Position numbers: made by a program. Below, one piece after another: positions 24,001-27,000 of a stretch of DNA of 64,000 nucleotides. Numbering within the stretch: the first letter of the stretch is position 1; every line of letters starts with the position of its first letter. This DNA comes from Escherichia coli (lineage in GTDB: Bacteria > Pseudomonadota > Gammaproteobacteria > Enterobacterales > Enterobacteriaceae): assembly GCF_041248615.1 (NCBI RefSeq), contig NZ_CP158426.1. One strand, written 5' to 3'.

Positions 24001-27000
24001 GCGTGGCACAGATAGCCATCGCATGGGCTATTGCGAAAGGTACCCTTCCCCTCGTTGGTGCGACTAAAGTCCATCACGTTCTGGACGCCGCCTGCGCTTC
24101 AGACATCCAGTTACGCGATGAGGAAATCATTCTGCTGGAACAACTCGCCGCAGAGACCAGAGTGGATACACGAGGCGCCTGGGAAAAACCGATGGTGTAA
24201 AGCCCGTCCGGAACAGACTGTCATGAATGACACACACGAACGGGCTGTTCCGGGTGATTCTAATCTGTATCACTTTTACTGCTTTGTATGAATGGTGAGA
24301 ATATGAAAATCATTTGCCTCGAAGAAAATTATCTCGACAGCGAGTTAGGGCGAGCGTGTATGCCTGTTGCGCTTGAGCAGGCACCTTTCCTTGGCGACTG
24401 GGGGAAAACCGTCGCTGATGGTCATAATCCTGACCGACTCCCCAGCGCAGAGGTCAACTCCAGGCTTTCTATGTTTGCCTGGGGCTGGCATCACGAAGCG
24501 GGGATCCATTTGTTGCGGCTGATGTTATCGGGCGCATTTGATAAATATCCCAACCTGCAGGTAATCAGTGGCCACTGGGGGGAGATGTTACCCTTCTGGC
24601 TCCAGCGTCTTGATGACAGACTACCACTGGCTGCAACGGGTCTGTCACGCACGCTAACGAGAACCTTCAAGGAACACGTTTACGTTACCCCGTCAGGTAT
24701 GCTGACACTGCCGCACTTCAAGTTTATCTACGAGTTAATGGGGGCAGAAAGGATCCTATTCTCCGTCGATTATCCCTATCAGACCCTGGACGGTGTAAAA
24801 ACCTTTATAGACAGTCTGCCCGTCAACAAGGCTGAAAAAGAGGCCATCGCATTTCGCAATGCAGAACGTTTACTGGGCATCACGGCGTAGTTCACGGGTT
24901 CGTGATGACCGGTACAATGAGAACAGTTGACCATTATTAGTTTTTGTCTAAAAGTGAATAAGTCTTTACTGCTCTAAAAAAAATAATGGTGTCACTCTAT
25001 ACTGGGTTAAACATTCACCAAATATATTTAACTCATTGAAATGAAAAATATCCTTATTGTTTCAGGCCATCCTGAGCTTACCCATTCCGTCGCCAATGCC
25101 ACGATCCTTGATGAAGTGGAGACCGCCCTTCCTGATGTTGAGATTCGTCGTCTGGACAGGCTCTATCCGGATGGCAAATTCAACATCGCGGCGGAGCAGG
25201 AAAGCCTGCTCAGGGCCGATGTGATTGTCTGGCAGTTCCCTTTTTCCTGGTATGGGCTGCCAGGATTAATGAAAAAATGGCTGGACGAGGTCTTTGTTCA
25301 CGGCTTCGCGCATGGCTCAACGGCGAAACTGGGCGGTAAAAAGCTGATCCTCTCCTTTACAACGGGAGCGCCAGAGGAGCTCTATACCGTCGACAGTTTC
25401 TTTGGCCATACCATTGAAGAGTATCTAATTCGGTTCGAGACCACAGCAAAACTGTGCAATCTTGAGCTGCTGGAGCCGGTTTATACCTGCGGTATCAGCT
25501 ATGCCGATCGGGATGCCGACAAACTCGCGCAGCAAAAAACGCTTGCCCGGGAACACGCTTCAAGGCTTGTCGATCTGCTCAATTCCGTCGTGAATAATCC
25601 AGAGGGAGAATAACAATGCAGTATACCCGGCTCGGTAAAAGTGACTTACTTGTTTCCCGCATCTGCATGGGATGCATGGGGTTTGGCGATCCGTCGACGG
25701 GTCAGCATAGCTGGACGCTGGACGAAACAGCAAGCCGCGACATCATTCGCTATGGCCTTGAAAAGGGCATCAACTTTTACGATACCGCTATAGCCTACCA
25801 GAATGGCTCCAGTGAGCGATACGTTGGCCGGGCATTACGGGAGATGGCGAAACGCGATGATATCGTCCTGGCCACCAAGTTTCTGCCGCGAACCCCCGCA
25901 CAAATTGCCGGAGGGATCAGCGGAAAAGAGGCAATCGCTCAATCCCTTGACCAGAGCCTGAAGAATCTGGGGATGGACTATATCGACCTCTACATCTACC
26001 ACATCTGGGATTACAACACGCCCATTATCGACGTGCTTGAAGCGTTATATACCGCTGTTACTGCTGGCAAAGTACGAGCTGTTGGTATTTCAAACTGCTA
26101 TGCCTGGCAGCTGGCGAAGGCGAACGCCCTTGCTGAACGCGAAGGGCTGACGCCCTTTGTTTCCGTACAGAGCCACTACAATCTAATTATGCGCGAAGAT
26201 GAACGGGAGCTCTTCGGCCTGTGCACTGAGGATAATATCGCAATGACCCCCTATAGCGCGCTGGCCAGCGGCCGCCTCTCTCGTAAAGAAGGCTATACAC
26301 GGCGAGCCACAGAGGATGACTATGCGCGTGGAAAATATGACAGCACGGCTGAACAGGATCGCAGCATTATTGAGCGTGTAGCCGAACTGGCCGAACGCCA
26401 TCTGGTGTCAATGACGGAAATATCTCTCGCTTGGCTGCTGACAAAAGTCACATCACCTGTCGTAGGGGCTACAAAAAAAGCTCATGTCGATGGCGCGGTA
26501 AACGCAGTAAATCTTCAACTAAGTCCGGAGGAAATTCAGTTTCTGGAAGAAACCTACCAGCCGCATGTTCTGACGGGGATCATGGCGCAAAATACGCCGC
26601 AAACGAAAGATGTTAAGCAGGTCTGGATGCGATAGCCCTTATTCACTTTTCCTCCTCTCGTCTTTGAGAGCGCCAGTAGCGGTCGGTTACGTTCTTACCA
26701 GCACCAGTTGATCGAACGTCTTAAACAGTAACGTCAGTAAAAAGATCATCGTGAAAAAGACTTTTATGCTTTTAATTTGCATGCTAATAAGCAGCCCTGT
26801 CTTTGCAACAAAACCGGACGCGCCGAATAAGCCGGAGATGAATATCTTCGAGCTCGGCATCAGACCCGATCGGGACAACGACTTTGCAGACGTGGCCAGA
26901 CAGACGATTTCCGCTTCGGTTGATCATGAAGCAGGTACACTGGCGATGTATGCCCTGCAACGCAGCGACAATTCAGGTCAGGCATTCATGTTCGAACTCT

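What the first reader, a model, noticed from the sequence alone, without database searches (positions are those of the whole stretch)
24303..24890. In-frame internally deleted ACMSD-family amidohydrolase with a mutated metal ligand
The ORF begins KIICLEENY, resembling the KVALEEHF start of gamma-resorcylate/ACMSD-type decarboxylases where Glu and His are metal ligands, but His is replaced by Asn. The C-terminal ~110 aa align well to the family (LRLMLSGAFDKYPNLQVISGHWGE and ERILFSVDYPY carrying the conserved Asp), yet the protein is only ~195 aa versus ~330, so the central strands carrying the other His ligand appear to be missing while the frame is kept. This looks like a decaying or repurposed non-catalytic remnant inside an otherwise intact operon.
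Basis: partly seen in the sequence, partly recalled or inferred. Interest (0 to 1): 0.4.

Follow-up and report, generated by a model that had tools for sequence, protein, structure and literature searches.

The report
Decayed amidohydrolase gene remnant, frame restored
This 195-codon ORF is a dead leftover of a 344-residue metal-dependent decarboxylase-type gene in an E. coli accessory operon: a 356-bp frameshifting deletion found in every E. coli copy was followed, in this rare allele, by a 91-bp deletion that happens to restore the reading frame, so it is an ordinary pseudogene.

Summary
Window 24303-24890 (+) encodes 195 aa and matches only the C-terminal half of Pfam Amidohydro_2. Its first 45 residues equal the family N-terminus except for His9->Asn.

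The intact orthologue is 344 aa. It sits in the same operon, with the same spacers, on an Enterobacter mori plasmid and in other Enterobacter species.

The apparent in-frame deletion is really two out-of-frame deletions:
- 356 bp (gene nt 134-489). All seven E. coli alleles examined share this junction, and none of 5,426 complete E. coli genomes contains the lost segment.
- 91 bp (nt 497-587, window junction 24442|24443), present in only 2 of those genomes.

356 + 91 = 447 = 3 x 149, so the frame is restored. Residues 46-196 are gone, which removes barrel strands beta2-beta5 and the invariant metal ligand His180.

Sister E. coli alleles carry further lesions: a 2-bp deletion in 314 genomes, a 1-bp insertion and a 26-bp insertion. 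His9/Asn9 is polymorphic among the already broken alleles (210 versus 253 genomes), so the ligand change came after inactivation.

E. cloacae and a second E. mori plasmid broke the same gene independently.

Verdict: a decaying pseudogene, not a short family and not demonstrably repurposed. Interest is low.

The parts
24303..24890 (+). Remnant ORF of 195 aa plus stop. It consists of ancestral residues 1-45, two junction-derived residues (Leu-Pro) and ancestral residues 197-344.
   Evidence: RefSeq CDS WP_024190054.1 has the same coordinates.
24327..24329 (+). Codon 9, AAT (Asn), where the family has His (CAT/CAC). This position corresponds to His10 of gamma-resorcylate decarboxylase, a metal ligand.
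   Evidence: Ligand identity comes from PMC8187880. The N-terminal correspondence rests on the motif (KxxxxEEH), not on a printed alignment.
24303..24437 (+). Retained 5' segment, ancestral gene nt 1-133 plus the 2-nt GA microhomology. It encodes strand beta1 and the first two helices.
24436..24437 (+). Junction of the first deletion: 356 bp, ancestral nt 134-489, with position ambiguous by the 2-nt GA microhomology. It shifts the frame and is shared by all E. coli alleles examined.
   Evidence: No E. coli genome contains the lost 356 bp.
24438..24442 (+). Five bases (CTCCC, ancestral nt 492-496) left between the two deletions. Their presence shows that this allele derives from the frameshifted allele rather than from an intact gene.
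24442..24443 (+). Junction of the second deletion: 91 bp, ancestral nt 497-587, no microhomology. It removes the NVPLYLHPG segment with His180 and restores the frame.
24443..24890 (+). Retained 3' segment, ancestral nt 588-1035. It encodes beta6-beta8 and their helices, and retains His212, His240 (codon 24573-24575) and Asp305 (codon 24768-24770).
22170..28295 (+). Surrounding operon, given as context: 103-aa protein, DJ-1/PfpI, aldo/keto reductase, the remnant, Flavodoxin_2 NAD(P)H oxidoreductase, aldo/keto reductase, ABM, CMD. A divergent LysR regulator lies at 21132-22031 (-).

Best explanation
The ORF is a non-functional remnant (pseudogene) of a 344-residue Amidohydro_2 enzyme. That enzyme belongs to the family of ACMSD-related, metal-dependent non-oxidative decarboxylases.

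Shown:
- In the E. coli lineage, a 356-bp deletion between short imperfect repeats (ATCCTGAC.../ATCCTGCC..., 2-nt GA microhomology) removed codons 46-163 and shifted the frame.
- This broken allele is the only state seen in E. coli. It has since collected further frameshifts, an insertion and a His9->Asn change in different sub-lineages.
- In the window's lineage, a second deletion of 91 bp removed codons about 166-196, including the metal-binding His180.
- Because 356 + 91 is a multiple of three, the 5' and 3' pieces were fused back in frame.

Inferred:
- The product, if made, has only four of the eight barrel strands and two of the four residues that bind the metal. It cannot form the (beta/alpha)8 barrel or the active site, and it has no enzymatic role.
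- The frame restoration is an accident of decay.
For: - **Intact orthologue.** It has the same operon order and identical spacers of 102 and 150 nt: E. mori plasmid NZ_CP119171, 344 aa. Intact 344-aa copies occur in several Enterobacter species. 342-aa copies sit in a syntenic operon on metagenomic contigs.
- **First deletion mapped.** Nt 134-489 in all seven E. coli alleles examined. The lost 356 bp has no match in 5,426 complete E. coli genomes.
- **Second deletion mapped.** The 91 bp is ancestral sequence encoding FNKLNVPLYLHPGLP.... It is present in 462 genomes. The deleted junction is present in 2.
- **Further lesions in sister alleles.** A 2-bp deletion in the invariant PSGM motif in 314 genomes; a 1-bp insertion; a 26-bp insertion annotated 'internal stop'.
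- **Timing of His9->Asn.** His9 (CAT) is in 210 E. coli genomes and Asn9 (AAT) in 253, and every allele sampled from either class carries the 356-bp deletion.
- **Independent inactivation of the same gene.** E. cloacae, 191-bp deletion; E. mori pHS08-091, 31-bp deletion.
- **Ligand mapping.** H180 aligns with His164, H240 with His218 and D305 with Asp287 of gamma-RSD 4QRO/3S4T. The ligand list is from PMC8187880. H180, H240 and D305 are invariant in 53 homologues.
- **Structure models.** The intact protein models as an 8-stranded barrel at pLDDT 94.1 with strands at 4-10, 78-83, 117-121, 146-150, 177-180, 236-238, 275-277 and about 300. The window protein drops to pLDDT 79.3, loses beta1 (residues 1-7 below 50) and keeps only two strands.
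- **Closest-allele comparison.** Window versus L002 over the retained 3' part: 1 synonymous and 5 non-synonymous differences.
Against: - dN/dS between E. coli allele groups in the retained 3' part is low (0.17-0.23; 9-10 synonymous versus 6-7 non-synonymous changes). Taken alone this would suggest constraint. I attribute it to divergence that predates inactivation and was shuffled by recombination. In support, synonymous divergence jumps from 0.005-0.014 in the upstream reductase to 0.06-0.15 downstream. This explanation was not tested formally.
- The exact fused protein is seen on about 600 contigs of the large collection, so the lineage carrying it is not vanishingly rare.
- No expression or protein-stability data exist.
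- RefSeq annotates the ORF as an ordinary CDS.
Confidence: 0.88

Rival explanations
1. The frame-restoring 91-bp deletion was selected, though not for the protein itself. Re-opening a continuous reading frame across the dead gene restores ribosome cover of the mRNA and relieves Rho-dependent polarity on the four downstream genes (Flavodoxin_2 oxidoreductase, aldo/keto reductase, ABM, CMD).
For: In the common allele the first ORF stops after 51 codons, about 670 nt before the next gene start. The window allele is translated to within 150 nt of it. All downstream genes are intact.
Against: - Only 2 of about 464 locus-bearing complete genomes have the deletion.
- 314 genomes added yet another frameshift without losing the downstream genes.
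- A sigma-70-like site lies at 24891-24918, just upstream of the next gene. It is a weak consensus match, and such sites are no more frequent here than in shuffled sequence.
- One in three random deletions restores a frame by chance.
Confidence: 0.06
2. The 195-aa half-barrel is a repurposed, non-catalytic protein, for example a binding or regulatory subunit, maintained by selection.
For: - The open frame is kept and RefSeq calls it a CDS.
- The identical protein occurs on hundreds of contigs.
- The C-terminal half still models with locally confident helices.
Against: - It derives from a frameshifted pseudogene.
- There are no diverged orthologues of this length. All members of its 90% cluster are the same allele or fragments.
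- Against its closest allele it shows 5 non-synonymous and 1 synonymous change, including changes at the nearly invariant Ala202 and in the conserved RLDDS segment.
- Four of the eight strands are missing.
Confidence: 0.03
3. It is a genuine short family of about 195 aa, or a sequencing/assembly artefact.
For: None beyond the existence of the open frame.
Against: - Homologues with full coverage are 340-344 aa. The shorter hits are fragments or other broken alleles.
- The same junction occurs in two independent complete genomes and on hundreds of contigs, so it is not an assembly error.
Confidence: 0.01

Closest known systems
Intact orthologue: Enterobacter 'amidohydrolase family protein' of 344 aa (e.g. 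WP_303570777.1 on E. mori plasmid NZ_CP119171)
   Same: Same operon slot, same flanking genes and same spacers. The first 133 nt are 132/133 identical and the retained 3' part is 95% identical.
   Different: The window copy lacks residues 46-196 and has Asn for His9.
ACMSD-related metal-dependent non-oxidative decarboxylases (Pfam PF04909): gamma-resorcylate decarboxylase (3S4T/4QRO, 2DVT), LigW 5-carboxyvanillate decarboxylase (4INF, 4ICM), 2,3-dihydroxybenzoate decarboxylase (6M53); the closest solved chain is the uncharacterised amidohydrolase 3NUR
   Same: - The intact orthologue matches these at E=7e-73 (3NUR) and from 1e-47 to 5e-38 for the characterised decarboxylases.
- It aligns His180, His240 and Asp305 with His164, His218 and Asp287 of gamma-RSD.
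- It shares the N-terminal EEH motif.
   Different: The window protein keeps only the beta1 segment and the beta6-beta8 half. Two of the four metal-binding positions are lost. The substrate of the intact enzyme is unknown.
Common E. coli allele of the same locus (e.g. NZ_CP151026: a 51-aa 'hypothetical protein' plus a 187-aa 'amidohydrolase family protein')
   Same: It has the same 356-bp deletion junction and the same Asn9, and is about 99% identical.
   Different: It retains the 91 bp encoding NVPLYLHPG, so the two pieces are in different frames. The window allele lost those 91 bp and reads through.

Membership tests
Amidohydro_2 (PF04909) / ACMSD-related decarboxylases | Significant match to the family profile | tested here: met
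   E=3.6e-15 and 56.9 bits against a cut-off of 26.4, but the match covers only profile positions 147-289 of 289. There is no NCBIfam hit.
Amidohydro_2 (PF04909) / ACMSD-related decarboxylases | Complete (beta/alpha)8 barrel | tested here: not met
   Residues 46-196 of the 344-aa orthologue are absent. In the pLDDT 94 model these carry strands 78-83, 117-121, 146-150 and 177-180. The model of the window protein has two strands left.
Amidohydro_2 (PF04909) / ACMSD-related decarboxylases | Metal-binding set: Glu and His after beta1, His after beta5, Asp after beta8 (Glu8, His10, His164, Asp287 in gamma-RSD, PMC8187880) | tested here: not met
   Glu7 and Asp305 are kept. His9 is Asn and His180 is deleted.
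Amidohydro_2 (PF04909) / ACMSD-related decarboxylases | Conserved His after beta6 (SGHWGE; aligns with His218 of gamma-RSD) | tested here: met
   His91 of the window protein, codon 24573-24575. The position is invariant in 53 homologues.
Amidohydro_2 (PF04909) / ACMSD-related decarboxylases | Decarboxylase or hydrolase activity | not testable with these tools
   This needs an enzyme assay. Even the intact orthologue has no known substrate.
Pseudogene (decaying gene remnant) | Disruptive lesion relative to an intact orthologue in conserved synteny | tested here: met
   Deletions of 356 bp and 91 bp relative to the E. mori 344-aa gene in the same operon.
Pseudogene (decaying gene remnant) | Additional, independent lesions in sister alleles | tested here: met
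   A 2-bp deletion in 314 genomes, a 1-bp insertion and a 26-bp insertion with internal stop. Separate deletions occur in E. cloacae and in a second E. mori plasmid.
Pseudogene (decaying gene remnant) | Relaxed selective constraint (dN/dS near 1) | tested here: inconclusive
   Window versus its closest allele gives 1 synonymous and 5 non-synonymous changes (ratio 1.5), but the counts are tiny. Between E. coli allele groups the ratio is 0.17-0.23, probably confounded by recombination and by divergence older than the deletion.
Genuine short (about 195 aa) protein family | Diverged orthologues that keep the short length | tested here: not met
   The only proteins of this length are the identical E. 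coli allele or near-identical variants. All other hits with full coverage are 340-344 aa.

The most novel reading that the evidence does not exclude
The second, frame-restoring deletion is adaptive rather than accidental. One version is that it re-couples translation to transcription across the dead gene and so rescues expression of the four intact downstream detoxification-type genes. The other is that the resulting half-barrel protein has acquired a non-catalytic role. In either case the gene would be 'resurrected' as an open frame after a frameshifted pseudogene stage.
Probability: 0.07. Interest if true: 0.45.

Novelty: new member of a known kind. Interest (0 to 1): 0.15.

Why it matters
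Scientifically it matters little. This is ordinary gene decay in an accessory E. coli operon.

There are three minor points of value:
1. It is a clean, fully reconstructed example of an apparently in-frame internal deletion that is really two successive out-of-frame deletions passing through a pseudogene stage. This is a caution against reading open frames as evidence of function.
2. RefSeq annotates this remnant, and the fragments in other strains, as ordinary 'amidohydrolase family protein' or 'hypothetical protein' CDSs rather than as pseudogenes.
3. The same gene has been knocked out independently at least three times in Enterobacteriaceae while its operon neighbours stay intact. This hints that the enzyme is dispensable or disadvantageous in these hosts.

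Tried and rejected
- **MAFFT alignment of the remnant to full-length genes.** It misplaced the 5' segment. I replaced it with a global affine-gap alignment and an explicit junction scan.
- **First search for the missing middle segment in E. coli.** It used a relative only about 70% identical (L007) and was too insensitive to be decisive. I repeated it with the 356 bp of the E. mori orthologue, again with no match.
- **NCBIfam.** No family hit.
- **Promoter and terminator scan of the operon.** Counts were not above shuffled expectation, so nothing was concluded from it.
- **dN/dS as a test of pseudogene status.** Inconclusive, because the locus is mosaic.
- **AF2 model of the remnant.** Treated only as consistent with loss of the barrel, not as evidence about stability, because the alignment comes from intact homologues.
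- **Literature search combining the operon's gene names.** It failed on syntax and was not repeated, so I did not establish whether this operon has been studied.
- **Not run.** The expensive genome contigs and metagenome scans, and the 1.84-billion-protein representative search. The intact orthologue and the population picture were already clear.
- **Coordinate error.** My coordinates for the DJ-1 gene were wrong. Its integrity was judged from the ORF list and the RefSeq annotation instead.

Full report
**1. What is there**

Window 24303-24890 (+) is an open frame of 195 codons, or 200 from an upstream ATG at 24288. The window coordinates coincide with E. coli NRZ14408 (NZ_LT599825.1, from position 2691672). 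RefSeq annotates exactly this ORF as WP_024190054.1, 'amidohydrolase family protein'.

Pfam Amidohydro_2 (PF04909) matches at E=3.6e-15. The match covers only residues 60-193, which correspond to profile positions 147-289 of 289. NCBIfam gives nothing.

The ORF lies in a plus-strand gene row:
- a 103-aa protein
- DJ-1/PfpI
- aldo/keto reductase
- this ORF
- Flavodoxin_2 NAD(P)H oxidoreductase
- aldo/keto reductase
- ABM
- CMD

A divergent LysR regulator precedes the row. The whole cluster sits between hipBA and a truncated HTH regulator next to the ydeQRS fimbrial genes. The locus is present in about 470 of 5,426 complete E. coli genomes.

**2. The intact gene**

A protein search returned 734 relatives. 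Those covering both ends are 340-344 aa.

The true orthologue is on Enterobacter mori plasmid NZ_CP119171. It has the same gene order and the same 102-nt and 150-nt spacers around a 1,035-bp, 344-aa gene. Its first 133 nt differ from the window at one base, and the retained 3' part is 95% identical.

Intact 344-aa copies are also found in E. asburiae, E. bugandensis, E. sichuanensis and other Enterobacter species. A 342-aa copy sits in a syntenic operon on metagenomic contigs.

The intact protein matches solved structures of the ACMSD-related decarboxylase group:
- 3NUR, an uncharacterised amidohydrolase, E=7e-73
- LigW (4INF), E=1e-47
- 2,3-dihydroxybenzoate decarboxylase (6M53), E=4e-44
- gamma-resorcylate decarboxylase (3S4T/4QRO), E=2e-43

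**3. How the short ORF arose**

Alignment to the E. mori gene shows two deletions in the window allele.

- **Deletion 1** removes 356 bp, nt 134-489. The position is ambiguous by a 2-nt GA microhomology, and the flanks are the similar strings CATAATCCTGACCGA and GATCATCCTGCCTATGA. Because 356 = 3n+2, it shifts the frame.
- **Deletion 2** removes 91 bp, nt 497-587, at window junction 24442|24443, with no microhomology. Here 91 = 3n+1.
- Together they remove 447 = 3 x 149 bp. The product is residues 1-45, then Leu-Pro read from the five leftover bases CTCCC plus one, then residues 197-344, giving 195 aa.

The five bases kept between the two junctions are downstream sequence that only the frameshifted allele joins to codon 45. 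The window allele therefore descends from the frameshifted allele, not directly from an intact gene.

**4. Population picture in E. coli**

All seven E. coli alleles inspected share deletion 1. The lost 356 bp of the E. mori orthologue finds no match in any of the 5,426 complete genomes, even with word-11 blastn.

The 91 bp is present in 462 genomes. There the gene is annotated as a 51-aa 'hypothetical protein' plus a 187-aa 'amidohydrolase family protein' in another frame. The junction of deletion 2 is found in only two complete genomes, NZ_LT599825 and NZ_OW967178. The identical fused protein is nevertheless recorded on about 600 contigs of the large draft and metagenome collection.

Sister alleles carry further damage:
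- a 2-bp deletion of the GG in the invariant PSGM motif, in 314 genomes
- a 1-bp insertion (L011)
- a 26-bp insertion with an annotated internal stop (L012)

**5. The metal ligands**

In Polaromonas gamma-RSD the metal is bound by Glu8, His10, His164 and Asp287 (PMC8187880). The phmmer alignment places His180 of the orthologue on His164, His240 on His218 and Asp305 on Asp287. The N-terminal EEH motif corresponds by pattern to Glu8-x-His10.

Among 53 full-length homologues, H180, H212, H240 and D305 are invariant, and E7, E8 and H9 are at least 90% conserved.

The window protein keeps Glu7, His212, His240 and Asp305. It has Asn at position 9 and lacks His180.

The His9/Asn9 difference is polymorphic among E. 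coli alleles: CAT in 210 genomes and AAT in 253. Sampled alleles of both classes carry deletion 1. The ligand substitution therefore happened in a gene that was already dead. It is drift, not the inactivating event, and not a sign of a new function.

**6. Structure**

The intact orthologue models as a confident (beta/alpha)8 barrel: pLDDT 94.1, pTM 0.92. Its strands are at 4-10, 78-83, 117-121, 146-150, 177-180, 236-238, 275-277 and about 300.

Residues 46-196 hold strands 2-5 and six helices. The model of the 195-aa protein has pLDDT 79.3, loses strand 1 (residues 1-7 below 50) and retains two short strands.

This is consistent with a fragment that cannot close a barrel. AF2 is not a stability test, so I treat the result as supporting evidence only.

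**7. Selection**

Between the window and its closest allele (L002), the retained 3' part has 1 synonymous and 5 non-synonymous differences. Polarised with E. mori, the window-side changes are S255R and Q272K, which are unique to it, and A202S, at a nearly invariant position and shared with L010 and L012. The counts are too small for a test.

Between E. coli allele groups, dN/dS is 0.17-0.23. That is lower than expected for a pseudogene.

The locus is clearly mosaic. Synonymous divergence is 0.005-0.014 in the upstream reductase but 0.06-0.15 from the 3' part of the remnant onward, and variable sites fall in blocks. The likeliest reason for the low ratio is divergence accumulated in intact donors and moved by recombination. 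I did not test this formally, and it remains the one observation that does not fit simply.

**8. Independent losses elsewhere**

- An E. cloacae genome has a 191-bp deletion (nt 375-565) in the same gene.
- A second E. mori plasmid has a 31-bp deletion (nt 741-771).
- Both retain His9, and both have intact neighbours.
- A metagenomic relative (L007) has a 2-bp deletion, but that could be an assembly error.

**9. The rest of the operon**

LysR, the 103-aa protein, both reductases, the Flavodoxin_2 protein, ABM and CMD have the same lengths as in E. mori, no stops and 86-98% identity. The DJ-1 gene is an intact ORF annotated at 22487-23179. 'Otherwise intact operon' is correct.

**10. Verdict**

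The main refinements are the two-step, frame-restoring history and the late origin of His9->Asn.

'Repurposed' is not excluded, but nothing supports it. A slightly more interesting possibility is that restoring the frame relieves transcriptional polarity on the downstream genes. This is untested, and the rarity of the allele argues against it.

This is an ordinary pseudogene of a known enzyme family, so interest is low.

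Noticed in passing
L014:5643-6486 (E. cloacae GCA_040409405.1) and L015:6001-7004 (E. mori plasmid pHS08-091): The same amidohydrolase gene is independently broken. The E. cloacae copy has a 191-bp deletion and the E. mori pHS08-091 copy a 31-bp deletion, both frameshifting. Their operon neighbours remain intact. This looks like recurrent loss of one gene from a conserved operon.
   Followed up: partly
window 24327 (codon 9); L009:1175, L011: His9/Asn9 is polymorphic among E. 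coli alleles that already carry the 356-bp deletion: 210 genomes have CAT and 253 have AAT.
   Followed up: yes
L009-L012, gene nt 841-842 (equivalent to window about 24696-24697): 314 E. coli genomes carry an extra 2-bp deletion removing the GG of the invariant PSGM motif. L011 adds a 1-bp insertion and L012 a 26-bp insertion.
   Followed up: yes
window 23253-25613 compared with L002 and L009-L013: Divergence among E. coli alleles is mosaic. The upstream aldo/keto reductase is nearly identical (dS 0.005-0.014), whereas the 3' part of the remnant and the Flavodoxin_2 gene differ by dS 0.06-0.15 in block patterns. This suggests recombination breakpoints in or near the remnant.
   Followed up: partly
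window 26635-26781; L008:9819-10838; L014:6486-6670: Operon content varies between hosts. E. mori has a DUF1330 gene and a second NAD(P)H oxidoreductase between the second reductase and ABM, which E. coli lacks. E. cloacae lacks the Flavodoxin_2 gene and the second reductase. The Pasteurellaceae-like version (L003) has a YCII gene and no first reductase.
   Followed up: no
window 28687-28944: A truncated helix-turn-helix regulator, annotated as a pseudogene missing its N-terminus, lies at the right edge of the accessory cluster, between it and the fimbrial genes. The cluster occupies the interval from hipA (ending at 20733) to this fragment and is present in only about 9% of complete E. coli genomes.
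   Followed up: no
window 26751-27476 and 27492-28295: The tandem-ABM protein and the tandem-CMD protein both begin with hydrophobic, signal-peptide-like N-termini (MKKTFMLLICMLISSPVFA..., MKSVLAAAAMSLVISDFANA...). This would be unusual for these normally cytoplasmic domain families.
   Followed up: no
RefSeq records NZ_LT599825, NZ_OW967178, NZ_CP151026 and others: The annotation pipeline labels the remnant and its fragments as ordinary CDSs ('amidohydrolase family protein', 'hypothetical protein'). Only the allele with an internal stop is flagged as a pseudogene.
   Followed up: partly
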